A stretch of 64,000 nt of DNA from Chitinophagales bacterium (GCA_046329575.1 JAXLUJ010000006.1:166121-230120); one strand, 5' to 3'. Positions 4,760-64,000 are shown, counted from the stretch's first letter. Notes: generated by a model not told the origin, from the letters alone. Made by a program: numbers and translations.

Positions 4760-4848
4760 TAGGTTTCAGTTCACAAGCAGCAGGCCCTTTTCAGAAATCC
4801 GACTTCGGTGCTGCATTCCGACCGCTCAGAATGGTCAGGTGTTTCAAA
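4760..4848. repeat. Probable degenerate copy (reverse orientation) of the GC-rich interspersed element family
   Basis: The reverse complement contains GCAGCACCGAAGTCGGA...AAAGGGCCTGCTGC. This resembles GGAGCACCGAAGCGATAGCGGA...AAAGCGCGGGTGCCGC in the 44139-44242 copy. Confidence 0.4.
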
Positions 4849-4850
4849 CT

Positions 4851-5003
4851 CGCAGCTCATAGCTCAAAGCTCACAGCTCAAAGCTTTCCTCTTGCATCTT
4901 GCATCTTGCATCTTGCGTCTTGTGCCTTGCATCTTGCGTCTTGCGTCTCGCGTCTCGCATCTTGCATCTTGCGTCTTCCTCTCCCCTCTCTTCCTCCTCT
5001 CTT
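4851..5003. repeat. Heptamer-block array, left arm: AGCTCAN block, CTTGCRT block (about 12 units), CT-rich block
   Basis: 7-nt periodicity read directly from the sequence. It is a module-level reverse complement of 5941-6071. Confidence 0.85.
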
Positions 5004-5031: not shown

Positions 5032-5940
5032 ATGATCAAAAAGTGGCATATCAAGGCTGTTGTGCAGAAAACTATTTCCTGGCTGCCTTACAAGCATTCC
5101 ATAAATTATTTATTTCAGCGGTATGTTACACGCGGCGTCTTACTTACTGATGCCCTTTTTACTGACAAGTTGGAACATCTTCGATTTCATATTGAAAAGC
5201 AGCGTAAATACAGCCACGTGCCTTGTGATGTGTTGGAAATTGGAACCGGCTGGTATCCGGTAATTCCGTTGGGAATGCTGCTGGCCGGGAATAGAAGCGT
5301 ATCCACATTCGATATTGTTCAACTGGTTACTTCACAACAAGTCCGCGATACCTTGCGCTGTTATGTGAGGTGGCATGAAGCGGGCAAGCTGGAATCATAT
5401 ATTCCCAATTACGATCATGCGCTGATTGAAAAGTTTCGCGATGTACTTAAAGAAGAACATCGCGACCCGTTGTTGGAATTCGGCATTCAGTATGTATCGG
5501 GAAATTTTCCGGATGCTTTCAAAAAGCCGGAAGCATTTGATCACATCTGTTCCAACAACACTTTCGAACATATTTATGAAAATGCGCTTCGCGAAACGCT
5601 TTCCATCTTTCGAAAAATTCTTAAACCAAATGGTGTGATGAGCCATCATATTGATATGTCTGATCACTTTGCGCATCTCGATAAAACCATCACCCCATTT
5701 AATTTTCTTCAGTTCAATGATGCCGATTGGCAATGGATTGACAATACCGTTCAACCACAAAACCGACTGCGTTGTTCCGATTTCGAAAAAATGATACGAG
5801 AGGCCGGCTTTGAGATTTTGGAAGAACATCAACTGAGTGGTTCGCTTCATGATTTAGCAAAGATCAGCTTAGCTCAAAAATACAGCCACTACCGGCCGGA
5901 AGATCTTGCGGTGACTCATGTGTATTTTACGTGCAGATAA
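5032..5940 (+). CDS. Class I SAM-dependent methyltransferase
   Basis: 302-aa ORF with motif I VLEIGTGWYP, followed by ICSNNTFEHI and LKPNGVMSHHID (Methyltransf_11/23-like pattern). Confidence 0.8.
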   Translation: MIKKWHIKAVVQKTISWLPYKHSINYLFQRYVTRGVLLTDALFTDKLEHLRFHIEKQRKYSHVPCDVLEIGTGWYPVIPLGMLLAGNRSVSTFDIVQLVTSQQVRDTLRCYVRWHEAGKLESYIPNYDHALIEKFRDVLKEEHRDPLLEFGIQYVSGNFPDAFKKPEAFDHICSNNTFEHIYENALRETLSIFRKILKPNGVMSHHIDMSDHFAHLDKTITPFNFLQFNDADWQWIDNTVQPQNRLRCSDFEKMIREAGFEILEEHQLSGSLHDLAKISLAQKYSHYRPEDLAVTHVYFTCR

Positions 5941-6071
5941 AGGGGAATTTTAGGAGAAGAAGGCGCAAGACACAAGAGGCAAGACACAAGATGCAAGACA
6001 CAAGACACAAGACACAAGAAGCAAGAGTAAAGCTGTGAGTTTTGAGCTATGAGCTATGAGCTACGAGCTGC
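5941..6071. repeat. Heptamer-block array, right arm: AG-rich block, GCAAGAY block (about 9 units), TGAGCTN block
   Basis: It starts on the base after the methyltransferase stop codon. It carries the same three modules as 4851-5003 in inverted order. Confidence 0.85.
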
Positions 6072-6184: not shown

Positions 6185-6910
6185 ATGAAAGAAAAACTAC
6201 TATTCATCGCCCTGCTGCTGAGCACCATTCTAAATGCGCAAACTCTTAATGATATAGACGGCGATGGAACGGTGAATTCAGCTGATAATTGTATGTTCTT
6301 TCCTAATCCCGGACAAACTGATTCCGATAATGATGGTGTTGGCGATGCCTGCGATCCTTCGCCAATGGTGGCCAATCCGGTGTGCGATCGGCCCGGTAAT
6401 TCATTCACCTATGTGCAGCCCGACTCTGTAATTTCGGTGGGAACGAAAGTCACCTTTCAGGTTATTACACAACGTCCGGATTCCATAATATGGTATAAGA
6501 ACAATGTTGCTGTAGGAACCAATAGCACTTCTTACGTCGATAGCACGCTAAGCAATTCCGATCGTATTTGGTGCAGTATTGTAATCAACGATGCGTGCCA
6601 TGCGAACCGCATAGAAGTAAAAGGCAACGAGATACAAATGACAGTACATCCATTACACACCGGTGTGGAGGAAGTGCAACCGTCTGTTTCAGTAACCTTG
6701 ATTCCAAATCCTGCTCATGGCCAAATGCAATTGTTTTGCAATCAAAAAATCACCAAGGTTTCGATCATAAATAATATTGGCGCCAAAGTTTCGGAATGGG
6801 AACAACCTGCCTTCTCCCATTTCGATATCAGCAATTTACAGAATGGCATTTATTCTGTTTTGGCAGAACATTTCAATGGAAGAACAGCCGTTCGACTGGT
6901 TGTGGAATAA
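6185..6910 (+). CDS. Secreted protein with thrombospondin type-3-like Ca-binding repeats and a T9SS C-terminal sorting domain
   Basis: Signal peptide [19 protein letters not shown]; [31 protein letters not shown]; C-terminus [13 protein letters not shown]...[22 protein letters not shown]. Confidence 0.8.
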
Positions 6911-6984
6911 CTGATTCAACTTTTCTTCCATCTGGTTTTTACATACACTAAGACGGCTGCTGTTTTCGTTCTATCAAAAACGAT

Positions 6985-7350
6985 ATGAGAAAATTTTTGC
7001 CAATTATTTTTATCACCGTTGTTGGTACAGCTTCCGCTCAAAGCGATTTTAGAAAAATGGGTGGAACGATGTCGAAGGGCGAAGTCTTAAATTTATGGGG
7101 TGTAGAAGCCAAACTTCCCGATTTTGAATACGATGCCAAGTTCACGGTAACTCATTTCGATTTTGTATTACTGAAAAAATCAGGCGAGTTACTTTCAGCC
7201 GATAATTCCGGTGCATTCTTTTCCGACAAAATAAAAAAGTGGCTACGCCAAACCCAGCCGGGCGATATATTGTTTTTTGAGAACATCAAAGCCGTTGGCC
7301 CCGATCGTTTGGAGCGGCATTTGGGTAGAATTGTAGAGAAGGTGTATTGA
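6985..7350 (+). CDS. Small secreted protein; function unknown (a tentative GldM C-terminal-like pattern)
   Basis: Signal peptide MRKFLPIIFITVVGTASAQ. The pattern F.F.L..K.G....ADNSG.F......I......PGDILFFENIKAVGPD is recognised from memory only. Confidence 0.6.
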   Translation: MRKFLPIIFITVVGTASAQSDFRKMGGTMSKGEVLNLWGVEAKLPDFEYDAKFTVTHFDFVLLKKSGELLSADNSGAFFSDKIKKWLRQTQPGDILFFENIKAVGPDRLERHLGRIVEKVY

Positions 7351-7489
7351 GGTATGCAAAAAGTCTGGCTTTGAACAAAAGACCTCTAAACGATTCCGTT
7401 TACAGTTTAACTTTCCGAACTTTTCTGCTACTGTGAGATTTGCGAAGCCATCTCATGAGAGCGGGTAATGATTGGGCAATTTCCTATTG

Positions 7490-9043
7490 TTATTCTTTTA
7501 TAAACGTCCTTGCGATTACGCCGCTACTTCCTTTTAAGGTCAGCACATATGTTCCTTTAGAAAGCGTACTCGTATTCAAAATATACTGAACACCGGTAGT
7601 GATGTGCGATTGCTCCAGCACTTCACGGCCATCTATAGTGGAAACAGCTACATCGTATGCTTTATCCTGCGAATTTCCTGTTACATAAAAATAGAGCACA
7701 TTCGAAGTAGGATTTGGCGACAGGCGAATCTCCGCCAATTCTTTAGTGGATTCCGTAACACCCAAATCGTTTTGGCAACCTGGCACCAGACAACCAAAGC
7801 TATCTAGTTTAATAATCCAGCCGCGTTGGTAAATAGAGTCGTTGGTGTTTTTAGTGTCGCCACAAGCAATTAAACTGCCATCCGGTTGCTCCACTATGTC
7901 GTACAAACTACTGATTTGCGCGTTGCTTAGAGCGCGGTAAGAGCGTTCCCATATAATTTTTGCACTATCGGATTCATCCGAAAACTTAACCAGATAACCT
8001 GCAACATAAACAGACGTATCTTCCGGATTAAGGATGTTTCGCCCAACTGCCACATAATTACCATCATGAACTTTCTTAATACTGAACATGGTGGTAACTG
8101 TTTCAAAGGTAAATTGGGGTATAGGTCTGGTTAACTTCTTATGCCATCGCAGAACCCCGGTGCTTCCTACTTTGCCGATCAATGGTTGATAAGCCAAAAG
8201 GTCCACGGTATTAGAATGATCGAACCAGCTGCTACAAAATACCATAGATTGATCGGACGTATCAATCACAGCCGAGGCAATACCCTGAATACTGTCGGGT
8301 AAAATGAACCTTCGTATTTCGTTGCCCGATGAATCAATATAAAAAACGACGGGATGAAATATAGGAGATACGCTAGCAAGCGGCGTATAACCTGCAACCA
8401 AATGCTCACCGTACCTGGATGGCTTAATGATCTGTGGTACAAAGTCGGCATCAGCAGGTTGAGGATACCAGCGAGTCCAAAGAATAGCACCCGAACTGTC
8501 AAAACAATAAATCCGGATCCTGACCTTTTGATCGGTTAAACTCCGTTGTAAGCCATTGAGAACAAGAGTGGTGTTAAAATCCGTCGGACTAAAATCATAG
8601 AAATAATTGGCTTTATAATTTGAGTCGAAAACGTTTACAGCAAAAACAATGTTTCCGGTAGTGTCAAAAAGGTCTAAAAAATTATAAAATGATCCATCAG
8701 CATATCTTATTGCTGAGCCTCCAATTATCAATTGATTCTTTGAATTAATCCGGGGAGTGTTCTCCACCACAAAATACGTTGCCGCTGTGTCTTGAGTTCC
8801 ACTATTCCACAAAAAGGAAATAGAGCCATTATCATTTAATCTTCCCAATACTACATTTGACTTGGGCTCTGTACCGGAGCTATCGAAATAGTTAAGACTC
8901 ACAAAAGACTTATCAGCTATATTTTTTACACCCGAAACTATGGTGTTTCCATGCACAAACTGATTGGTGACATTATACCCTTGAGCATTTGCATCACTCA
9001 TCCTAATGAATAAGATTATTAATATCAATTTGGCTGTGTTCAT
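7490..9043 (-). CDS. Secreted protein with T9SS C-terminal sorting domain
   Basis: 517 aa with an N-terminal signal peptide. C-terminus LSPNPTSNVLYFYV...KGTYVLTLKGSSGVIARTFIKE. Confidence 0.8.
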   Translation of the reverse strand: MNTAKLILIILFIRMSDANAQGYNVTNQFVHGNTIVSGVKNIADKSFVSLNYFDSSGTEPKSNVVLGRLNDNGSISFLWNSGTQDTAATYFVVENTPRINSKNQLIIGGSAIRYADGSFYNFLDLFDTTGNIVFAVNVFDSNYKANYFYDFSPTDFNTTLVLNGLQRSLTDQKVRIRIYCFDSSGAILWTRWYPQPADADFVPQIIKPSRYGEHLVAGYTPLASVSPIFHPVVFYIDSSGNEIRRFILPDSIQGIASAVIDTSDQSMVFCSSWFDHSNTVDLLAYQPLIGKVGSTGVLRWHKKLTRPIPQFTFETVTTMFSIKKVHDGNYVAVGRNILNPEDTSVYVAGYLVKFSDESDSAKIIWERSYRALSNAQISSLYDIVEQPDGSLIACGDTKNTNDSIYQRGWIIKLDSFGCLVPGCQNDLGVTESTKELAEIRLSPNPTSNVLYFYVTGNSQDKAYDVAVSTIDGREVLEQSHITTGVQYILNTSTLSKGTYVLTLKGSSGVIARTFIKE

Positions 9044-9052
9044 AACTCGAAC

Positions 9053-9397
9053 CTATTTAGCGACGACAAATTGCCTTACAGTAGAAAATCCATTGTCACT
9101 TTGAAATCTAATAAGGTAGCTGCCATTGCTCATGTTTGCAAGTTTCAAGTTTTCTATTCCAAAACCTCGGTTTATTTCCCCTTTTTGAATAAGCCGCCCT
9201 GCTAAGTCGGTAATCTGAAAATAGTTATGGGCAGATTTTGGCATAAAAAATTGTATGGTAATTTGAGTTGTTGCCGGAATCGGATAAATTTTGAAAATAT
9301 TATGTGTAAATTTCTTTTTAACGTACGAAAACTCCTTCTCTTTATTAAACGTCCCTTCTTCTGGGAATGTAGAACTCCCGCGATATTTTCCAAGCAA
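9053..9397 (-). pseudogene. Stand-alone T9SS C-terminal domain, probable remnant of a larger cargo gene
   Basis: The ORF encodes only a CTD (IYPIPATTQITIQF...GSYLIRFQSDNGFSTVRQFVVAK). It has no signal peptide and no upstream passenger domain. Confidence 0.4.
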
Positions 9398-9430
9398 TCT
9401 TGCAAGAGCTGAACCTCACGACATTCCTGA

Positions 9431-9462
9431 AAATAAAAAAAGGCTGCCTTTTCAGACAACCT
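9431..9462 (-). terminator. Rho-independent terminator after tRNA-Pro
   Basis: The minus strand reads AGGUUGUCU-GAAA-AGGCAGCCU, a 9-bp stem with 2 G-U pairs, followed by a U-run. Confidence 0.7.
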
Positions 9463-9469
9463 TTCTAAG

Positions 9470-9544
9470 TCGGGGTACCAGGATTCGAACCTGGGACCCC
9501 CTGCTCCCAAAGCAGGTGCGCTAACCGGGCTGCGCTACACCCCG
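9470..9544 (-). tRNA. tRNA-Pro (anticodon TGG)
   Basis: Manual cloverleaf: CGGGGTG acceptor, anticodon loop TTTGGGA, T-loop TTCGAAT, discriminator A. Confidence 0.9.
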
Positions 9545-9552
9545 AACTTACG

Positions 9553-9641
9553 CGGTGAGAGAGGGATTCGAACCCTCGGTACAGTTTAACCCGTACGTCA
9601 GTTTAGCAAACTGGTGGTTTCAGCCTCTCACCCATCTCACC
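9553..9641 (-). tRNA. tRNA-Ser (anticodon GCT), class II with long variable arm
   Basis: GGTGAGA acceptor, anticodon loop TTGCTAA, long variable arm, T-loop TTCGAAT, discriminator G. Confidence 0.85.
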
Positions 9642-9748
9642 GGGGCGGCAAATATAAAAACCTTTTTTTTTAACCCAACATTCACCTCCATTTTTTCCTT
9701 CCTCCTGCAATATTTCCCAATCCCGGTCGTTTTCTGCCAAATTGTTTT

Positions 9749-10168
9749 ATGAAAAAAATCCTCCCGCTACTCTTGGTATGCACATTGTTTTCCTGCAGAA
9801 AAGATCTACGCTCCAAAACCTATACCCTGCGTGGTTATAACCACTCCGGCGCCACCGGAACCGTTAAGTTTCTCGAAACCTCAGATAAAAATTTTACTAC
9901 CGTATACCTTGAAGCGCATGGCCTTCGCCTCGATACGCTTTACCGCGGCCACCTCCATACCGGCGTTCCGGGAAACCTCACCGGAACACTCCTTTACTTT
10001 GATGCGTTGCGTACGCACACGGGTTCACTCACCTACACCATAAACTGGAATGAAACTTATGATAATGCCATCAACAGCAATACCTGCGTGACCCTTCATA
10101 ATCCTGATTTCTTTTCGAATGATACGGTTGGATATGCGCTGGCCGGCGGCACCGGGAAAAATGAATAA
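9749..10168 (+). CDS. Lipoprotein, possibly CHRD-like
   Basis: Lipobox LLLVCTLFSC. The motif GHLHTGVPGN resembles the CHRD HIH.G motif, but this is a weak match. Confidence 0.6.
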   Translation: MKKILPLLLVCTLFSCRKDLRSKTYTLRGYNHSGATGTVKFLETSDKNFTTVYLEAHGLRLDTLYRGHLHTGVPGNLTGTLLYFDALRTHTGSLTYTINWNETYDNAINSNTCVTLHNPDFFSNDTVGYALAGGTGKNE

Positions 10169-10171
10169 ACC

Positions 10172-11203
10172 CTACTCTTTTATCGGAACAACAGCTCTGC
10201 CCGAAACGCCAACATAATCGGCAAATATGCCTGCCGATAAAAATTTATGATAATTTCCAATTCCCTGAGTGGCATGTAAAATGCCTCGATTTGCAGGTAC
10301 GTAAGCCACCAACTCGCCCGTAGCAGCATTCATTACAAAATGCTCGTAAGTTAAGCGATAAGCCTCACCGGTACTTACTATGGCCGGCGTAATCTCGATA
10401 TAGCAAATATTACTTTTACTGAAAATAGAATTCACTAGCGTATTATAACTTACCACCTCAAATGAATCAGCATAAAAACTCTTGACGTCCTCGGGTTGTA
10501 AACCTGACTGATATAAAAGATCGGATTTAATCATCAATACCGAATGAAATAGCGAACCCTTACTGAATTTTGCCAAATCAAGTGTAGAAAGTTCATATCC
10601 ATGCTCTAACGATTGCATTAACGAAAGCTGCATAAACTGAACTGCAAAAGCTATATCTTCTTTCAAAGGCCATAAATTCGCAATAGTTCGTTGAGCCAGA
10701 TGTTCACTGCTCCCAAACTTCGAGCATCGATCTAAACAAAACCCTGTGAAATATTCAAAATAGTCTCTCTTTTCATTGATTTTGTATAGATCGGGGAAGA
10801 AGTTTAATCCCTTTCGCTCCATTTTTTCAAAATAAGCCTGGTTATTTGGGAAATTGCCTGAATACAGTAAGAGGTAATCTTCGGAATGATTCCGGATCAG
10901 TGGCTCCACTTCAGCCCAAGTTTTGTATTCCACTTTTTGATTAAAAACCCAAAAGGAATCCACCACCTGACGAATACTTCGATTATAATTATCAATCGAT
11001 TTCAAATAAGCTTCCTGAGTAGCAGCGGTCCACTTTTTGGGTATATCCCGGCGTGGACTTTCCAAAATCACAATCAGTGTTTGCTTGCGGTAGCGTTCCA
11101 TTTTTTCTTTAAATGAACCAGCAAACAAAGCATCTACTGCCGAACACATTGCGAGCAATAAACAGCATACTCGAATCATACCGATCTGTTTTTTAAAATG
11201 CAC
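10172..11203 (-). CDS. Hypothetical secreted protein
   Basis: 343-aa ORF with an N-terminal hydrophobic signal (IRVCCLLLAMCSAVDALFA). I recognise no family. Confidence 0.7.
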   Translation of the reverse strand: MHFKKQIGMIRVCCLLLAMCSAVDALFAGSFKEKMERYRKQTLIVILESPRRDIPKKWTAATQEAYLKSIDNYNRSIRQVVDSFWVFNQKVEYKTWAEVEPLIRNHSEDYLLLYSGNFPNNQAYFEKMERKGLNFFPDLYKINEKRDYFEYFTGFCLDRCSKFGSSEHLAQRTIANLWPLKEDIAFAVQFMQLSLMQSLEHGYELSTLDLAKFSKGSLFHSVLMIKSDLLYQSGLQPEDVKSFYADSFEVVSYNTLVNSIFSKSNICYIEITPAIVSTGEAYRLTYEHFVMNAATGELVAYVPANRGILHATQGIGNYHKFLSAGIFADYVGVSGRAVVPIKE

Positions 11204-11608
11204 TTACTTCAAATAATTTTTCCTAATCCGATAAACCGGCCCCGGACATTCTTCCATATGACAGGTGATGCAACTCTTCACCACTATATTGTACTGTGCT
11301 CGCCGGGCCGTATCGCTTTCCGTTTTTTCATACGCATCCAACTCCTTGTAAAACGTGCCAATGTACGCCTCGTGAGCGTCAGACAAATGTTTGGTTTCCG
11401 TTGCTTTCGCCTTTAAGAATTTGGCCTGCTTCACCGGAAATTTCGCCTGCGGCTTGCCTTCTTTCAACCGTACATTTTCTTTCTCCAAATACCACTCCAT
11501 CTTCTGCATCAATTTACTCATCTCGCTTTCGCCTTCGGCCGGCAGGGCTGCAGCTATCAATCCCAACGCCATGATGGCCCAAATTAGTAGCAATACTTTC
11601 GTTTTCAT
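11204..11608 (-). CDS. Class II-type c cytochrome (single C-terminal CxxCH)
   Basis: I re-called the start to MKTKVLLLIWAIMALGLIAA (ATG at 11608). The heme motif CITCH lies about 20 aa from the C-terminus of a ~134-aa helical protein. Confidence 0.65.
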   Translation of the reverse strand: MKTKVLLLIWAIMALGLIAAALPAEGESEMSKLMQKMEWYLEKENVRLKEGKPQAKFPVKQAKFLKAKATETKHLSDAHEAYIGTFYKELDAYEKTESDTARRAQYNIVVKSCITCHMEECPGPVYRIRKNYLK

Positions 11609-23054: not shown

Positions 23055-23166
23055 AAAGTTATAAGTTCTGAGTTCTAAGTTCTGAGTTCTGAGTAAAAAT
23101 GGAGCGTTCAAACTCCGTGACCCAATTACCCTTAATTTTAAACTTATAACTTGTAACTTAAAATTA
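23055..23166. repeat. Self-contained heptamer-array hairpin (RAGTTCT-type arm, approx 37-nt centre, inverted AACTTRT-type arm) directly after yajC
   Basis: Left arm 23055-23094, right arm 23132-23166. The complementarity is imperfect and tolerates register shifts. Confidence 0.75.
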
Positions 23167-30305: not shown

Positions 30306-30387
30306 ACAATTCACAATGGACAATGAACAATGAACAATGAACGATGAACGATGTGTCATAAGTCATTGTAAATTGTGAATTGTAAAT
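30306..30387. repeat. Self-contained heptamer-array hairpin (ACAATGA arm / TCATTGT-AATTGTR arm) directly after gcvP
   Basis: Left arm 30306-30352, centre TGTCATAAGT, right arm 30364-30387. Confidence 0.75.
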
Positions 30388-30669
30388 GGCGTTGTTGCAT
30401 GAAATTATAGTCTAAACAGGATTTTTATTTTTGCGGATGCCGGGCTGTTCGCTGCAAGTCCTCAGCCGCGGCCTAACTTTTGTGATCCTTGAAATGCAGC
30501 AGTGGCGCGGCTTCCGGGCTTTCCGCTACCATCCCTACCGCGGTTTGCCAAAATATAAAGCCAAACTCATTTTGAACAACACACACAAGTCCTTTTAAAT
30601 ATTTCATCACCTTTTATGAGGCAATGCCCATCCTTGGCGCGTCTGAATTATTCATGCAACAACGCCATT
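30385..30669. mobile_element. MITE-like 285-bp non-coding insertion with 19-bp perfect terminal inverted repeats; contains a GC-rich family element (approx 30436-30545, reverse orientation)
   Basis: AATGGCGTTGTTGCATGAA (30385-30403) is the exact reverse complement of TTCATGCAACAACGCCATT (30651-30669). The flanks on both sides are ATTGTRA heptamers that would be contiguous without the segment. Confidence 0.45.
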
Positions 30670-30704
30670 GTAAATTGTAAATTGTGAATTGTGAATTGTG
30701 AATT
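30667..30704. repeat. ATTGTRA heptamer array (about 5 units), left arm of the 30.7-31.9 kb cassette
   Basis: Reads ATTGTAAATTGTAAATTGTGAATTGTGAATTGTGAATT. Confidence 0.8.
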
Positions 30705-31895: not shown

Positions 31896-32017
31896 AAAAT
31901 TCAATTTACAATGAACAATACACAATGGACAATGGACAATGAACAATGAACAATGAACAATGAACAATGAATAATGAATAATGAATAATCGACAATGGAC
32001 AATTCAAAATTTAAAAT
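31896..32017. repeat. ACAATGA heptamer array (about 17 units), right arm of the 30.7-31.9 kb cassette
   Basis: 7-nt periodicity with variants ACAATGG, ATAATGA and ACAATAC. It is the reverse complement class of 30667-30704. Confidence 0.85.
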
Positions 32018-34545: not shown

Positions 34546-34923
34546 AGGGAGAGGCAAGACACAAGATGCAAGACGCAAGAGGCAAGCCATGAGCCGATAG
34601 TTATGAGCTGCGAGCTACAACACACTCACGCTACCAATACACCGATACACGGATACACGTTTAGATGCAAGACGCAAGACACAAGACGCAAGTCGCAAGC
34701 TGTGAGCTGAGAGTTATGAGCTGTGAGCTTCAACACACTAACTCTACCAATACACCGATACACGGATACACGTTTAGATACAAGACGCAAGACACAAGAT
34801 GCAAGACGCAAGAGGCAAGCCATGAGCCGATAGTTATGAGCTGTGAGCTTCTACACACTCACCAAACTTACCAAACTCACCACACCTACCACACCTACCA
34901 CACCTACCACACCCACCATACCC
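34546..34923. repeat. Composite tandem array: three 113-bp units, each made of a GCAAGAC block, a TGAGCTN block and an ACACAC/ATACACGGATACACG block; the last unit ends in CACCTACCA 9-mers
   Basis: Unit starts are at 34554, 34667 and 34780. 34554-34610 is identical to 34787-34843 (57 nt), and 34631-34666 is identical to 34744-34779 (36 nt), by my reading. Confidence 0.9.
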
Positions 34924-40956: not shown

Positions 40957-41070
40957 GGCGGCACCCGCGCTCTACGTTCCAATCTTTTTGCGCGGCCACT
41001 GATTCATTACTTCCGAGGTTGCGGAATGCCGCGCAAAAAGGATTTCCACTTCGATCGCTGCCGCGGTTGG
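40957..41070. repeat. GC-rich interspersed element copy (reverse orientation)
   Basis: The reverse complement starts CCGCGGCAGCGATCGAAGTGG and ends AGCGCGGGTGCCGCC, like the 44139-44242 copy. The internal hairpin has a 13-bp perfect stem, CTTTTTGCGCGGC (40984-40996) / GCCGCGCAAAAAG (41028-41040). Confidence 0.7.
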
Positions 41071-59725: not shown

Positions 59726-60676
59726 TTATGTTCGTTCCGCCACCCGCAATTTGGCCGATCGCGAGCGGCTGTTTTCCTTTTGTTCGCTATCGCCTGCCAC
59801 AATGGGCTTTTTGGTGATCAGCTTCCACTTTCTTTCCGTTTTTCCAAAGGCGTCTTTTTCCGGCTCATCTGAAAAATTGCCATGCTTCATATAGTTCTTC
59901 ACCAATCGGTCTTCCAGTGAATGAAAAGTGATCACGCATAACCGACCTCCGGTTTTGATGATCTCCTCACTTTGCAAAAGCAGTGCTTTCAATGCATCCA
60001 GTTCGCCGTTCACTTCAATTCGCAAGGCTTGAAATACCTGAGCAAAGTATTTATGCTTTTCGCCTATGGCATGCTGCTCCAGCAGTTGCACCAAATCAGC
60101 AGTTCGGCGGAATTCACGCACTTTCCGTTGCGCCACAATTGCTGCAGCAAGCGTTTTGGCATTTCGCACTTCGCCATAGCTTCCTAAAACTTCCTGCAAC
60201 CTTGCAGCAGGAAATTCGTTTAACACCATAGCTGCCGTTGTGGCGGCCCGAACGTTCATGCGCATATCCAAAGGTCCGTCGAAACGAAAACTGAATCCGC
60301 GATGCGGCGTATCGAACTGAAAAGAACTAACACCTAAATCGGCAAGCAATCCGTCCAGTTGCTGCACGCCATGCAATCGCAGAAACTTTTTTATTTGACT
60401 GAAATTGCTGTTCACGGCAGTAAACCGGTCGTCTTCAATGGCGTTGGCCAGCGCATCCGCATCCTGATCAAAACCCAGCAAACGACCCTGCGCACCCAGG
60501 TGCTTTAGGATTTCGCGCGAGTGACCGCCGCCGCCAAATGTGGCATCGGCATAAGTGCCATCAGGCTGCAACTGAAGTCCTTCCAGACATTCATGTAAAA
60601 GAACGGGTATGTGATAAGCCGCTGCTTTCTCTTCCTGTTCCGAATGAAAGCGCTCGTTCGGTTTATCCTTTTTCAT
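59726..60676 (-). CDS. rsmH: 16S rRNA (cytosine1402-N4)-methyltransferase
   Basis: HIPVLLHECLEGL, DATFGGGGHS, and ITFHSLEDRLVK. Confidence 0.95.
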   Translation of the reverse strand: MKKDKPNERFHSEQEEKAAAYHIPVLLHECLEGLQLQPDGTYADATFGGGGHSREILKHLGAQGRLLGFDQDADALANAIEDDRFTAVNSNFSQIKKFLRLHGVQQLDGLLADLGVSSFQFDTPHRGFSFRFDGPLDMRMNVRAATTAAMVLNEFPAARLQEVLGSYGEVRNAKTLAAAIVAQRKVREFRRTADLVQLLEQHAIGEKHKYFAQVFQALRIEVNGELDALKALLLQSEEIIKTGGRLCVITFHSLEDRLVKNYMKHGNFSDEPEKDAFGKTERKWKLITKKPIVAGDSEQKENSRSRSAKLRVAERT

Positions 60677-61118
60677 CTAAATATTTCGAAACCACATCTG
60701 CCAGATGCGAGATATTTCCATGCTGCGAAGCAATGAACTGATCGTATTTCGAACTCTCCCATATCTGGATCTTATCGAACATTCCTTTCAGCACCACTTC
60801 CTTCGCATTTCCGATATAACGCATCAATTGTTTTGAGATCAGAAACCTTCCGCTGTTGTCAAACTCCACTTCGGTAAGGCCGGCGGTAATTCCATTAATG
60901 AAATTCCGGTGCTCGGGGTTATAGGTATTCAGCTTGCGAAGTTTGGCCTCTTGCTCCGCCCAGGTTTGCATAGGATAAATCACCAGACAATCGTCAATAT
61001 CCTTGGCGATATAAAAACAGCCCTTATCCTCAGCAGGGAACTGCTTGAAAAACGATGAAGGCATCTTGATTCTGCCTTTGTCGTCAACCGTGCATGTGAT
61101 CTCTCCGAGAAACTTCAT
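60663..61118 (-). CDS. mraZ: Transcriptional regulator MraZ
   Basis: I re-called the start to MKFLGEITCTVDDKGRIKMP (ATG at 61118). It has two SpoVT/AbrB-like halves (DDKGRI.. / DNSGRF..). Confidence 0.9.
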   Translation of the reverse strand: MKFLGEITCTVDDKGRIKMPSSFFKQFPAEDKGCFYIAKDIDDCLVIYPMQTWAEQEAKLRKLNTYNPEHRNFINGITAGLTEVEFDNSGRFLISKQLMRYIGNAKEVVLKGMFDKIQIWESSKYDQFIASQHGNISHLADVVSKYLDEKG

Positions 61119-61130
61119 TCTGATGATTAC

Positions 61131-61183
61131 TTCCCACAAAAGTAGAACTAATTCCCACTTTGAACCACTATCTACCACTTTTT
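61131..61183 (-). promoter_or_regulatory. Candidate MraZ operator: direct repeats of AAGTGG(T/G) with 10-bp phasing
   Basis: The minus strand reads AAAGTGGTAG-ATAGTGGTTC-AAAGTGGGAA. CCAC on the plus strand lies at 61155, 61165 and 61175, with a fourth box (TTGTGGGAA, 61134) 21 bp closer to the ATG. Confidence 0.55.
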
Positions 61184-61355
61184 TAGACAGAAAGTTGTCA
61201 ACAGCATTCAAAAAACCACACAAACCATTGTGTATCCTACGTTTCAATGGTGGTAAAAAGTGGGATAATTAATGTTGAAAACGTATTTTCAAGCTTTAAA
61301 CGTGCATATACATCCACTTTTTAACATCTTATCCACAATTTGAAGAAGTTCATTA

Positions 61356-61522
61356 GGCTGTAAATTCATTGAAAACCAAGGTGTCTACCACCCTATCGGG
61401 AATCCAAAAGAGAAAACAGGTGCTGTAAATTCATTGAAAACCAAGGTGTCTACCACCCCTACGAACTTTGTGAGGCTCAGAAAGCATGCTGTAAATTCAT
61501 TGAAAACCAAGGTGTCTACCAC
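61356..61522. CRISPR. CRISPR-like mini-array: 3 perfect 36-bp direct repeats with two unique spacers (29 and 30 bp); no cas genes in the window
   Basis: GCTGTAAATTCATTGAAAACCAAGGTGTCTACCACC occurs at 61356, 61421 and 61487. The spacers are CTATCGGGAATCCAAAAGAGAAAACAGGT and CCTACGAACTTTGTGAGGCTCAGAAAGCAT. An AT-rich flank lies at 61262-61355. Confidence 0.45.
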
Positions 61523-61546
61523 CATAGTTTTCTGTTTCTTTGCAGA

Positions 61547-61972
61547 ATGAAACGAACCTTAGGGCTTTTGCTGGTAGTAGCCGTTCTATTTGCAGGCTAT
61601 TTATGGGTAATGAAACCCAAGCCCCCAGTATGTAAAGGATTGGAAAAAGTAAGTTTCGACTCGATTTCACCAACCGGCCGCGAACTTAAGGGGGAACTGT
61701 TATTTGCAAACGAATCGAAACTGCGAACGCAATTGGGTGAAATTGAGTTTAAGGCAAAGATTAACGGTACAGAAGTAGGCGCCATCCATCAGGAAGTAAG
61801 CAGCGGCATTTCAAAACAGGAAACGTATCGCTTGCCTTTCCAACTTCGATTTTCGACCGACGAAATTGTGCTGCAACCGCCTTACCGTATCGAAGTGACC
61901 GGCGAAGCGCGTTCTACCACTTTGTTCGCCAACTATCGCGCACCAATTCAAATCAATCTGGAAATCCAATAA
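61547..61972 (+). CDS. LEA_2 (LEA14/NDR1-HIN1-like) family membrane-anchored protein
   Basis: N-terminal TM, then a pattern typical of bacterial LEA_2 proteins (F.A.ING.EVG....). This assignment is moderately confident. Confidence 0.6.
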   Translation: MKRTLGLLLVVAVLFAGYLWVMKPKPPVCKGLEKVSFDSISPTGRELKGELLFANESKLRTQLGEIEFKAKINGTEVGAIHQEVSSGISKQETYRLPFQLRFSTDEIVLQPPYRIEVTGEARSTTLFANYRAPIQINLEIQ

Positions 61973-61973
61973 C

Positions 61974-62432
61974 GTGAGAATATTTTTTTTCATGGCCTTA
62001 TTGGCCACTGCCCTTTCTTCCTGTCACATCACAGCTCCTATTTATAAGCGTACCGAAAATTTCGATTTCCACCGCGTTGACCAAGTGGGATTTCATTTGG
62101 GCGCCAATGCCATTTTTTATAATCCGAACAAAGTAAAGTTCAAAATCGAAAAGCTTACGATGGACATCTATTTTGACGGAAAAAAAATTGGCACCATTGG
62201 CGACAGCTCTCAGGTTCGTATCGAAAAGCGCTCGGAGTTTGCCATACCCATGAATATTGTGGTAAACCCCGAGGTTACCTTACCACAGGGTTTGAACACG
62301 CTCTTTAAAGTACTGGCTACACTTGAGGCTACTGTTGACTTGCGCGGCGTAGTAGTTGTAAAGGCATACGGACTAAAATTCCCAATTACCGTAAACGAAA
62401 CGCAAAAAGTAGATCTCACGAAATTGCGTTGA
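61974..62432 (+). CDS. LEA_2 family lipoprotein (paralogue of the upstream gene)
   Basis: GTG start and lipobox LATALSSCH. NPNKVKFKIEKLTMDIYFDGKKIGT. Confidence 0.6.
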   Translation: MRIFFFMALLATALSSCHITAPIYKRTENFDFHRVDQVGFHLGANAIFYNPNKVKFKIEKLTMDIYFDGKKIGTIGDSSQVRIEKRSEFAIPMNIVVNPEVTLPQGLNTLFKVLATLEATVDLRGVVVVKAYGLKFPITVNETQKVDLTKLR

Positions 62433-63539: not shown

Positions 63540-63624
63540 TGGTGCCCAGGAAGGGACTCGAACCCCCACACCTTGCGGCTCTCGCACCTGAAACGAGCGC
63601 GTCTACCAATTTCGCCACCTGGGC
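63540..63624 (-). tRNA. tRNA-Leu (anticodon CAG), class II, encoded CCA
   Basis: GCCCAGGTGGCGAAATTGGTAGACGC 5' half, anticodon loop TTCAGGT, long variable arm, T-loop TTCGAGT, and 3' ACCA. Confidence 0.9.
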
Positions 63625-63832
63625 GCTTAGCTCTGCAACAGCGAGCTACGCTAAATTTCAGTGGCGCGAATGTAAGCAAAGATTGGAATTGCGCAACCAA
63701 CCCACATCAATTAATACAATTGGATTTTGCACAATTTTATTGGATGATCACAGTCATACGCTCCACGAATTCCGAAAATCCGGCACCGCCCCGGCAAGCT
63801 CCCTTATTTCAGTCCTAATGTTTATCCCTAAA

Positions 63833-64000
63833 CCCTTGCGTCTTGCATCTTGCGTCTTGTGTCTTGCGTCTTGCGTCTGGACGTGTATCCGTGTATTAGT
63901 TTATCCGTATGTTCGTGTGGCATAGCTAAAAGCTCATGGCTCACGGCTCACGGCTCGCAACTTGCCCCTTACGTCTTGCCCCTTGTGTCTTGCGTCTTGC
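63833..64000. repeat. Composite heptamer-block array, reverse-complement orientation of the 34546-34923 family; continues past the window edge
   Basis: GTCTTGC block, then ACGTGTATCCGTGTAT (the reverse complement of ATACACGGATACACGT at 34.65 kb), then an AGCTCA/GGCTCAC block, then a GTCTTGC block. Confidence 0.85.

What the first reader, a model, noticed from the sequence alone, without database searches (positions are those of the whole stretch)
61356..61522. CRISPR-like mini-array (3 x 36-bp perfect repeats, 29- and 30-bp unique spacers) beside the mraZ promoter, sharing an 8-mer with the MraZ boxes
GCTGTAAATTCATTGAAAACCAAGGTGTCTACCACC occurs three times without mismatch, at 61356, 61421 and 61487. 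The copies are separated by unrelated 29- and 30-bp sequences, and an AT-rich leader-like stretch precedes them. This is the classic 36/30 geometry of Bacteroidota CRISPR arrays such as types II-C and VI-B. However, there are no cas genes within the window, and the array lies in the divergent region between the dcw operon and two LEA_2 genes, ending 24 bp before the ATG at 61547. Each repeat ends in TCTACCAC. That is the same 8-mer as the plus-strand form of the strongest MraZ-type box 180-340 bp away (61171-61178, minus-strand AAGTGGTAGA). Two hypotheses follow. The first is an orphan or trans-served CRISPR array. The second is a set of distal high-affinity sites for the multimeric MraZ regulator, or for another factor, that merely mimics CRISPR geometry. 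Either would be unusual at this locus.
Basis: partly seen in the sequence, partly recalled or inferred. Interest (0 to 1): 0.7.

Follow-up and report, generated by a model that had tools for sequence, protein, structure and literature searches.

The report
Strain-variable mini-CRISPR array beside mraZ
Three perfect 36-bp repeats separated by two unrelated 29/30-bp inserts sit in the control region between the cell-division operon and a small LEA_2 operon of an uncultured Chitinophagales bacterium; a 99.2%-identical strain carries one repeat and no insert there, so this looks like a very young CRISPR-type array far from any cas gene, possibly born by off-target spacer insertion.

Summary

New evidence:
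- Independent k=31 assemblies of the same strain break exactly 30 nt into the outer repeats, so the array is not an artefact.
- A strain with 0.8% divergence has leader, one repeat and trailer, with no spacers. The locus therefore differs by whole repeat-spacer units.
- The 64-kb window has no cas gene, no further repeat copy and no anti-repeat.
- The repeat and both spacers are absent from GTDB representative genomes, JGI metagenomes, IMG/VR, phages and plasmids.
- The repeat matches no Rfam CRISPR family and folds weakly. It resembles type VI-B repeats only in its termini and central U-run.
- The 36-mer is built from words of the adjacent MraZ-box-rich control region. GTGGTAGA is this clade's distal MraZ box.

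Best reading (about 0.65): an integrase-made, cas-distant mini-CRISPR array. I lean towards a "neo-CRISPR" born by off-target integration into native promoter DNA, over an ordinary isolated array that collapsed in the other strain. The idea that the triplet is a designed set of MraZ sites is not supported. This is a new member of a known kind, of moderate interest. The decisive test is a scan of the whole MAG for cas genes and its canonical repeat.

The parts
61357..61392 (.). Repeat 1 (36 bp). The transcribed strand is undetermined.
   Evidence: Exact copy. The Logan contig L044 from the left side stops at 61386, 30 nt into this repeat.
61393..61421 (.). Spacer 1 (29 bp): CTATCGGGAATCCAAAAGAGAAAACAGGT
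   Evidence: Unique in the window. Unrelated to spacer 2 and to both flanks. No match in IMG/VR, phages or plasmids. Absent from the strain in DRR438477.
61422..61457 (.). Repeat 2 (36 bp)
   Evidence: Exact copy. Absent from the strain in DRR438477.
61458..61487 (.). Spacer 2 (30 bp): CCTACGAACTTTGTGAGGCTCAGAAAGCAT
   Evidence: Unique in the window. No match in IMG/VR. Its central 22-mer is not in JGI metagenomes. Absent from the strain in DRR438477.
61488..61523 (.). Repeat 3 (36 bp)
   Evidence: Exact copy, not degenerate. The Logan contig L035 from the right side starts at 61494, 30 nt before the end of this repeat.
61266..61356 (+). AT-rich, leader-like left flank. It holds a Bacteroidota -7-like box, ACAATTTG, at 61339-61346, 10 bp before repeat 1. 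A second candidate, TAATGTTG, lies at 61270-61277.
   Evidence: Read from the sequence. GC is 33%. Promoter function is inferred, not shown. Identical in L001 apart from one SNP at 61301.
61524..61546 (+). 23-bp right flank up to the orf141 ATG. It contains TAGTTTTC (61525-61532, 7 of 8 matches to TAnnTTTG), 22 bp after the TTG inside repeat 3. This could be a composite promoter that survives array growth.
   Evidence: which reported TTGAAA-17-CATAGT at 61500-61528. This is inference only.
61547..61972 (+). orf141, a secreted or lipoprotein-like distant LEA_2 paralogue, and the first gene downstream of the array (GenBank MFN8309648.1, locus tag U0T73_06765)
61992..62432 (+). LEA_2 family gene (MFN8309649.1)
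   Evidence: Pfam LEA_2
61154..61178 (-). mraZ operator with three GTGG[GT] boxes at 10-bp spacing. The distal box is GTGGTAGA, the 8-mer shared with the repeats.
   Evidence: The layout is conserved in 28 Chitinophagales loci.
61137..61144 (-). -7 promoter box of mraZ, TACTTTTG
   Evidence: Relatives have a box in the same position.
60663..61118 (-). mraZ, the first gene of the dcw cluster
   Evidence: Pfam MraZ, E = 2.4e-26
61250..61264 (+). Inverted second pair of MraZ-type boxes, GTGGTaaaaaGTGGG, pointing towards the array and orf141
   Evidence: Inverted repeat I3

Best explanation
This is a very young, strain-variable mini-CRISPR array of 3 repeats and 2 spacers that lies away from any cas gene. 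It was made by Cas1-Cas2-type spacer integration acting in trans. Each integration inserts a 29/30-bp fragment and duplicates the 36-bp target, which gives perfect repeats around unrelated inserts.

Within that reading I lean, at roughly 55:45, to a 'neo-CRISPR'. On this view the 36-mer was originally an ordinary single-copy piece of the MraZ-box-rich control region upstream of orf141/LEA_2, as still seen in the strain from DRR438477. It resembled the host's real 36-bp repeat well enough at its ends to be used twice as an off-target integration site. The alternative within the same reading is an isolated array carrying the genome's canonical repeat.

The array lies between candidate rightward promoters and the orf141 ATG, so it is probably co-transcribed as a 5' leader. 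The last repeat stays next to the right flank, so orf141 expression need not be disrupted. Because the repeat lacks the hairpin of known 36-nt repeats, I expect little or no functional crRNA: a scar of adaptation rather than a working defence locus.

Shown: the repeats, the unrelated spacers, the one-versus-three polymorphism, and the absence of cas genes in the window.
Inferred: the integrase mechanism, the direction of change, transcription, and the lack of function.

The confidence of 0.65 is for the general claim of an integrase-made, cas-distant array. The neo-CRISPR sub-claim alone is about 0.35.
For: 1. Three exact 36-mers surround unrelated 29/30-bp inserts. Identical repeats around mutually unrelated inserts cannot arise by tandem duplication followed by divergence.

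2. Locus polymorphism by whole units. L001 (DRR438477) has 10 SNPs over 1278 bp, all silent or intergenic. It reads left flank, one repeat, right flank.

3. The same pipeline on same-strain samples behaves differently. Contigs stop exactly k-1 = 30 nt inside repeat 1 (L044) and repeat 3 (L035). Logan uses k = 31 and keeps every 31-mer only once per accession. The array is therefore real in those samples, and the single copy in DRR438477 is very probably real too.

4. The array looks young. All repeats are perfect, and there is no degenerate terminal copy.

5. The 36/30 geometry equals that of Bacteroidota II-C and VI-B arrays, where II-C Cas1-Cas2 serves a second array in trans (PMC8092290).

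6. Off-target integration is a recognised origin of cas-distant arrays (PMC13142298 citing Shmakov 2020; Nivala 2018 as described in 10.1101/148544).

7. Evidence for the neo-CRISPR lean:
- The 36-mer shares CATTGAAA, TTGAAAAC, TCTACCAC and TACCACC with the adjacent 238-bp control region (p about 0.002-0.03).
- GTGGTAGA is the clade's distal MraZ box.
- The repeat is in no collection and in no Rfam CRISPR-DR family.
- It resembles VI-B repeats only at the termini and the U-run: 16/36 identities to the literature-verified PspCas13b repeat (p about 0.01). It lacks their hairpin (-0.8 against -7 to -11 kcal/mol).
- Neither flank is a normal leader: coding sequence starts 23 bp to the right.
Against: - No cas gene lies within 61 kb to the left or 2.5 kb to the right. 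The rest of the 313.7-kb contig and of the MAG could not be read, so an active Cas1-Cas2 with a 36-bp ruler is assumed, not shown.
- No protospacer was found for either spacer.
- With only two alleles and no outgroup, the direction of change is unknown. Gain of two units and recombinational collapse of three repeats to one are equally compatible (relatives at 58-64% protein identity have non-homologous upstream DNA).
- The single-copy allele rests on one short k=31 contig.
- The word-sharing statistics are post hoc and modest.
Confidence: 0.65

Rival explanations
1. This is an ordinary isolated or orphan CRISPR array, a sub-variant of the general integrase-made reading. The 36-mer is the canonical repeat of a CRISPR-Cas system encoded elsewhere in the genome or since lost. 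The array is served in trans, and the single-repeat allele in the other strain is a collapse by recombination between identical repeats.
For: The geometry and the polymorphism are the same as for the best explanation. Cas-distant arrays are common. The left flank is AT-rich and leader-like, with a -7-like box 10 bp before repeat 1. The termini and central U-run are weakly VI-B-like.
Against: The exact repeat is absent from 185,579 GTDB species representatives, JGI metagenomes, IMG/VR, phages and plasmids. It matches no Rfam CRISPR-DR family. It has no stable repeat hairpin. The terminal repeat is not degenerate. The array sits 23 bp from a start codon, inside a box-rich promoter region whose words it shares.
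Confidence: 0.28
2. This is a regulatory repeat rather than CRISPR. The three 36-mers are binding sites for MraZ or another factor that controls mraZ and/or orf141-LEA_2, and they only mimic CRISPR geometry.
For: Each repeat carries GTGGTAGA, the clade's distal MraZ box. The region has 9 GTGG[GTA] boxes in 238 bp, against 1.05 on average elsewhere. The array lies between two divergent operons.
Against: There is one box per repeat at 65/66-bp spacing, while the conserved operator has three boxes at 10 bp. Binding sites are not normally 36 bp long and 100% identical while the DNA between them is unrelated. A 99.2%-identical strain has one copy. Relatives have none. No mechanism other than integrase-type insertion explains the unrelated inserts.
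Confidence: 0.1
3. The array is an assembly artefact or a chimera of strain variants in the MAG.
For: The source is a metagenome-assembled genome. Short repeats can be mis-joined.
Against: Two independent k=31 assemblies, from runs SRR26348420 and SRR26348422, are 100% identical to the window. They break exactly 30 nt into the outer repeats from both sides. That is what a repeat with several sequence contexts must produce.
Confidence: 0.04

Closest known systems
Neo-CRISPR arrays and mini-arrays from off-target Cas1-Cas2 integration (Nivala, Shipman & Church 2018; Shmakov et al. [quoted passage not shown] I know both through citing papers and from memory; the originals are not held.
   Same: A repeat-length duplication of a chromosomal sequence surrounds spacer-length inserts. 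The copies are perfect, there are very few units, there are no adjacent cas genes, and an 'empty site' allele with one copy exists.
   Different: The host's canonical repeat and its Cas1-Cas2 are unknown here, so similarity of the site to the true leader-repeat junction is untested. Two successive insertions have occurred at a site inside a cell-division and LEA_2 control region.
Bacteroidota type II-C / VI-B arrays with in-trans adaptation (Flavobacterium columnare, PMC8092290)
   Same: Repeats are 36 bp and spacers about 30 bp. An array without its own cas1/cas2 is filled by another system's integrase. The + strand 5' end GCTGT resembles the shared leader-distal GTTGT. The minus-strand reading, G-TGG...GTTTT...ACA-C, resembles VI-B repeats (16/36 identities to PspCas13b).
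   Different: There is no cas13b or cas9 nearby. The termini GGUG and CAGC do not pair like GUUG and CAAC. The whole-repeat hairpin is essentially absent (-0.8 against -7 to -11 kcal/mol).
Isolated or orphan CRISPR arrays (for example P. aeruginosa CR3 and Y. pestis YP3; PMC13142298)
   Same: The array is far from cas genes and its spacer content varies between strains.
   Different: Those arrays share repeat and leader with the cas-adjacent arrays and often sit on mobile DNA. Here the repeat is found nowhere else, and the site is core chromosome beside the dcw cluster.
MraZ operator of the dcw cluster
   Same: The repeats share the GTGGTAGA word and lie close to the genuine operator.
   Different: The operator is three boxes at 10-bp spacing directly upstream of the -7 box. 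The repeats carry one box each, 65/66 bp apart, and their copy number varies.

Membership tests
CRISPR array (generic) | Three or more near-identical direct repeats of 23-55 bp | tested here: met
   Three exact 36-mers
CRISPR array (generic) | Unique spacers of nearly constant length between the repeats | tested here: met
   Spacers of 29 and 30 bp, mutually unrelated
CRISPR array (generic) | Spacer content differs between close strains by whole repeat-spacer units | tested here: met
   L001 has 1 repeat and 0 spacers; the window has 3 and 2. The strains are 99.2% identical.
CRISPR array (generic) | cas genes next to the array | tested here: not met
   No Cas model matched any of 62 ORFs in the window.
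CRISPR array (generic) | cas genes, at least cas1-cas2, somewhere in the genome | not testable with these tools
   The source MAG (locus-tag prefix U0T73, contig 313,724 bp) is not in the searchable collections.
CRISPR array (generic) | Spacers match mobile genetic elements (protospacers) | tested here: not met
   There were 0 exact 29/30-mers or 21-mers in IMG/VR, and 0 hits for the 22-mer in JGI metagenomes. Phage and plasmid hits were at chance level only (E >= 2). The negative is weak because the lineage is poorly sampled.
CRISPR array (generic) | Repeat belongs to a described repeat family or has a stable repeat structure | tested here: not met
   No Rfam CRISPR-DR match at E <= 10. The minimum free energy is -3.1 or -5.6 kcal/mol, with z about 0.
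CRISPR array (generic) | AT-rich leader with a promoter on one side | tested here: inconclusive
   The left flank is 33% GC and has a -7-like ACAATTTG. There is no exact TAnnTTTG. The right flank is only 23 bp long before coding sequence.
CRISPR array (generic) | Processed crRNAs | not testable with these tools
   No RNA data are available.
Type VI-B (Cas13b) array | 36-nt repeats and about 30-nt spacers | tested here: met
   the PspCas13b repeat is 36 nt
Type VI-B (Cas13b) array | GUUG and CAAC termini that pair, and a whole-repeat hairpin with a U-rich loop | tested here: not met
   The termini are GGUG and CAGC. The enforced fold is -0.8 kcal/mol, against -11.3 (Psp), -11.2 (Bz) and -7.0 (Pbu).
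Type VI-B (Cas13b) array | cas13b adjacent to the array | tested here: not met
   The only ORF above 1000 aa is GcvP.
Neo-CRISPR (off-target integration) | An 'empty site' allele: the same sequence in single copy, with identical flanks, in a close relative | tested here: met
   L001. Collapse of an array would give the same allele, so this feature is necessary but not sufficient.
Neo-CRISPR (off-target integration) | The repeated unit is native local sequence rather than the canonical repeat | tested here: inconclusive
   There is an excess of shared 7- and 8-mers with the adjacent control region (p 0.002-0.03), including the clade's MraZ box. The canonical repeat is unknown.
Neo-CRISPR (off-target integration) | Duplication length and insert length equal the repeat and spacer lengths of the host's active system | not testable with these tools
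   This needs the rest of the genome.
MraZ operator | Two or three GTGG[GT] boxes at 10-bp spacing just upstream of the -7 box | tested here: not met
   This holds for 61154-61178 but not for the repeats, which have one box each at 65/66-bp spacing.
MraZ operator | Conserved at orthologous loci | tested here: not met
   No 36-mer-like sequence exists in 33 related mraZ loci (13 or more mismatches), nor upstream of orf141 homologues. The near-identical strain has one copy.

The most novel reading that the evidence does not exclude
This is a natural birth of a CRISPR array caught between two 99.2%-identical strains. An ordinary 36-bp piece of an MraZ-box-rich promoter region served twice as an off-target site for the host's Cas1-Cas2. 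That created a neo-array, tripled an MraZ-type box, and lengthened the 5' leader of a LEA_2 operon next to the cell-division cluster.
Probability: 0.35. Interest if true: 0.6.

Novelty: new member of a known kind. Interest (0 to 1): 0.45.

Why it matters
If the neo-CRISPR reading holds, this locus offers both the empty site and the filled site in natural strains. That pairing is the direct evidence natural surveys of cas-distant mini-arrays usually lack. It would also reveal which features of a non-repeat sequence a Bacteroidota integrase with a 36-bp ruler accepts. It further shows that adaptation can scar core regulatory DNA beside the dcw operon. If the array is instead an ordinary isolated array, it is routine.

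Tried and rejected
- **Exact-repeat scans.** GTDB representatives, JGI metagenomes and IMG/VR gave 0 hits. A central 21-mer in IMG/VR also gave 0.
- **Spacer searches.** Full spacers and four 21-mers in IMG/VR, and a 22-mer in JGI metagenomes, gave 0 hits. blastn against phages and plasmids gave only chance hits (E >= 2). Neither spacer has a second copy in the window.
- **Rfam.** No CRISPR-DR family matched at E <= 10.
- **Orthologous loci.** 33 mraZ loci from GTDB genomes (MraZ <= 69% identical) contain no repeat-like sequence and no orf141/LEA_2 neighbour. Loci of orf141 homologues (57-64% identical) have non-homologous upstream DNA. No outgroup is therefore available to polarise gain against loss.
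- **Reaching the source genome.** Exact-protein look-ups returned only short Logan contigs, so a genome-wide cas search was not possible.
- **Diverged tandem duplication.** Rejected, because the spacers are unrelated to each other.
- **tracrRNA-like anti-repeat or degenerate extra repeat in the window.** None found.
- **Other arrays in the window or in fetched loci.** None found.
- **Type V-A (Cas12a) similarity.** None.
- **Paper search for the MAG study.** Nothing found. Nivala 2018 and Shmakov 2020 are not held.

Full report
**1. The observation**

The 36-mer GCTGTAAATTCATTGAAAACCAAGGTGTCTACCACC occurs three times without mismatch, at 61357-61392, 61422-61457 and 61488-61523. Nothing else in the 64-kb window matches it at up to 3 mismatches, and no shuffle produced a match. 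The best other alignments on either strand have 14-15 mismatches, which equals the null for shuffled repeats. There is therefore no degenerate flanking copy and no anti-repeat.

The intervening 29-bp and 30-bp segments are unrelated to each other and to either flank. This rules out a tandem duplication that later diverged. The array ends 23 bp before the ATG of a 141-aa ORF at 61547.

**2. Context**

- mraZ is 60663-61118(-), followed by rsmH, ftsL, the PBP and mur genes and ftsZ.
- To the right lie orf141, which has no Pfam hit but is a distant paralogue of its neighbour, a LEA_2 gene, a T9SS-tail protein and a tRNA.
- PADLOC and Pfam scans of 62 ORFs found no Cas protein. The 1102-aa ORF is GcvP.
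- The source is an NCBI MAG of an uncultured Chitinophagales bacterium (orf141 = MFN8309648.1, locus tag U0T73_06765, contig 313,724 bp). The closest species representatives have MraZ only 69% identical.

**3. The key new evidence: a strain polymorphism**

Exact-protein look-ups recovered Logan contigs of this locus.

| Contig | Run | Relation to the window | Behaviour at the array |
|---|---|---|---|
| L035 | SRR26348420 | 100% identical | starts at 61494, exactly 30 nt before the end of repeat 3 |
| L044 | SRR26348422 | 100% identical | ends at 61386, exactly 30 nt into repeat 1 |
| L001 | DRR438477 | 10 substitutions in 1278 bp, all silent or intergenic | runs through left flank, one repeat, right flank, with no spacer |

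Logan assembles with k = 31 and keeps every 31-mer once per accession. Contigs that stop after k-1 = 30 nt of a 36-bp element are the expected signature of an element with several contexts. The array is therefore real in reads from those samples.

In L001 the same pipeline broke at the repeat when the array was present, yet passed through it here. So the single-copy allele is very probably genuine. I put the alternative, that both spacer paths were lost from the graph, below about 10%. The two strains thus differ by exactly two repeat-spacer units (131 bp).

**4. What was not found**

- The exact repeat is absent from GTDB representative genomes, JGI metagenomes and IMG/VR. Phages and plasmids gave only chance-level hits, none of them an array (E >= 2).
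- Neither spacer, nor sub-spacers of 21-22 nt, matches IMG/VR or JGI metagenomes. Phage and plasmid hits are at chance level, and neither spacer has a second copy in the window.
- No Rfam CRISPR-DR family matches, even at E <= 10.
- Related mraZ loci and the loci of orf141 homologues carry nothing like the 36-mer. In the relative GCA_046329555.1, mraZ and the orf141 homologue are three genes apart. No outgroup is therefore available to polarise gain against loss.

**5. Nature of the 36-mer**

It folds weakly, at -3.1 or -5.6 kcal/mol with z about 0.

Read on the minus strand it is GGTGGTAGACACCTTGGTTTTCAATGAATTTACAGC. This shares 16-18 of 36 in-register positions with three Cas13b repeats (p about 0.004-0.011). 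The shared positions are mainly the termini, G-TGG and ACA-C, plus the central U-run.

The defining whole-repeat hairpin closed by GUUG/CAAC is essentially absent: -0.8 kcal/mol when enforced, against -7 to -11 for real VI-B repeats. On the + strand the 5' end, GCTGT, is one mismatch from the GTTGT motif shared by Bacteroidota II-C and VI-B repeats. The 36-mer is therefore a look-alike at the ends, not a member of that family by structure.

**6. The 36-mer speaks the local regulatory language**

Across 28 Chitinophagales loci, the mraZ operator is three GTGG[GT] boxes at 10-bp spacing, followed by a TAnnTTTG -7 box. In the closest relatives the distal box is GTGGTAGA(A), the very 8-mer found in the repeats. 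In the window, the operator is at 61154-61178(-) and the -7 box at 61137-61144(-).

The 238 bp between mraZ and the array hold 9 GTGG[GTA] boxes, against 1.05 per 238 bp elsewhere. They include an inverted pair at 61250-61264(+).

Besides TCTACCAC, the 36-mer shares CATTGAAA, TTGAAAAC and TACCACC with this region. That is more than in control segments or shuffles (p about 0.002-0.03). The test is post hoc and modest, but it fits a native origin of the repeated unit.

As an MraZ site array the triplet fails. It has one box per unit and 65/66-bp spacing, it is not conserved in relatives, and its copy number varies between near-identical strains.

**7. Mechanism**

Perfect 36-bp copies around unrelated 29/30-bp inserts, changing by whole units between strains, are the footprint of Cas1-Cas2 integration. 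The enzyme makes staggered attack at both repeat ends, a spacer is inserted, and gap repair duplicates the repeat. This is established knowledge of CRISPR adaptation.

The 36/30 geometry is that of Bacteroidota II-C and VI-B arrays. In these, one integrase demonstrably fills a second array that lacks cas1/2 (PMC8092290). Cas-distant arrays are thought to arise in three ways: transfer on mobile elements, loss of the cas operon, or off-target spacer acquisition. Off-target integration has been shown to spawn 'neo-CRISPR' arrays in E. coli, with circumstantial natural cases.

I lean to the off-target origin for five reasons:
- The repeat is unknown elsewhere.
- It lacks repeat structure.
- It is made of local regulatory words.
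- It has no degenerate terminal copy.
- It has no proper leader on at least one side, since coding sequence starts 23 bp to the right.

The single-copy allele would then be the empty site. The alternative is a canonical isolated array that collapsed to one repeat in the other strain. I cannot exclude it without the rest of the genome.

**8. Likely expression (inferred)**

Candidate rightward Bacteroidota-type -7 boxes lie at three places:
- 61270-61277 (TAATGTTG), just after the inverted MraZ boxes.
- 61339-61346 (ACAATTTG), 10 bp before repeat 1. This resembles the CAATTTG box directly upstream of orf141 homologues.
- 61525-61532 (TAGTTTTC), 22 bp after the TTG inside repeat 3.

With either upstream promoter, the array would be part of the orf141 5' leader. 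With the last one, the promoter is rebuilt at the final repeat after every insertion, so array growth would be neutral for orf141.

On the minus strand, each repeat forms a small hairpin followed by UUGGUUUUC, which is terminator-like. The hairpin is weak.

**9. Verdict**

The feature is real, and the CRISPR-type origin is supported. I estimate about 0.65 for an integrase-made array. Within that, about 0.35 is for neo-CRISPR and about 0.28 for a canonical isolated array. The regulatory-site reading gets about 0.1 and an artefact about 0.04. It is a new member of a known kind and of moderate interest. It would rise in interest if the whole-genome check shows a different canonical 36-bp repeat, because the locus would then document both the empty and the filled state of a natural array birth.

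Noticed in passing
window 4844-4977, 5965-6069, 23056-23094, 30306-30353, 30667-30704, 31908-32003, 34550-34923, 63821-64000: Many intergenic regions carry tandem arrays of 7-bp units (TCTTGCA x12.6, ACAATGA x13.7, CAAGACA, AGCTATG, CTTGCGT and others). At 34550-34859 a 113-bp unit built of heptamers is followed by 9-mers (ACCACACCT). Units on the two sides of a gene are often reverse complements, for example TCTTGCG before and CAAGACA after the ORF at 5032-5940.
   Followed up: no
window 61137-61178 (-); loci L002-L029 and L038 upstream of mraZ: The Chitinophagales mraZ operator is conserved: tttaGTGGTannnaGTGGTannaaGTGGGa, followed by a TAnnTTTG -7 box. A TTGTTGAAAAAT-like motif often lies about 18 nt upstream.
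   Followed up: partly
window 61250-61277 (+): A second, inverted pair of MraZ-type boxes (GTGGTaaaaaGTGGG) is followed by TAATGTTG. It forms an 84%-complementary inverted repeat with the real operator (I3). This may be a divergent MraZ-controlled promoter towards orf141/LEA_2.
   Followed up: partly
window 61904-61931 (inside orf141): A 28-bp segment is 75% identical to the mraZ operator segment 61162-61189 and includes TCTACCACTTT (D3). It is possibly chance.
   Followed up: no
L038 (GCA_046329555.1, JAXLUK010000001.1) 6376-11588: In the nearest genome with an orf141 homologue, three genes (DUF6134, a 460-aa ORF and a fatty-acid hydroxylase) separate mraZ from it, and an IS110 transposase follows it. 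The mraZ-orf141 junction in the window is therefore a lineage-specific rearrangement.
   Followed up: partly
window 61377-61395 and 61443-61459 (-): Read on the minus strand, repeats 1 and 2 score as intrinsic-terminator-like: a GGUGG...CACC hairpin followed by UUGGUUUUC. The stems are short, at -5.6 kcal/mol.
   Followed up: partly
window 40959-41066 (-): A Flavo-1 RNA (Rfam RF01705, 52.5 bits) was found. tRNAs lie at 9470-9641(-) and 63543-63624(-).
   Followed up: no
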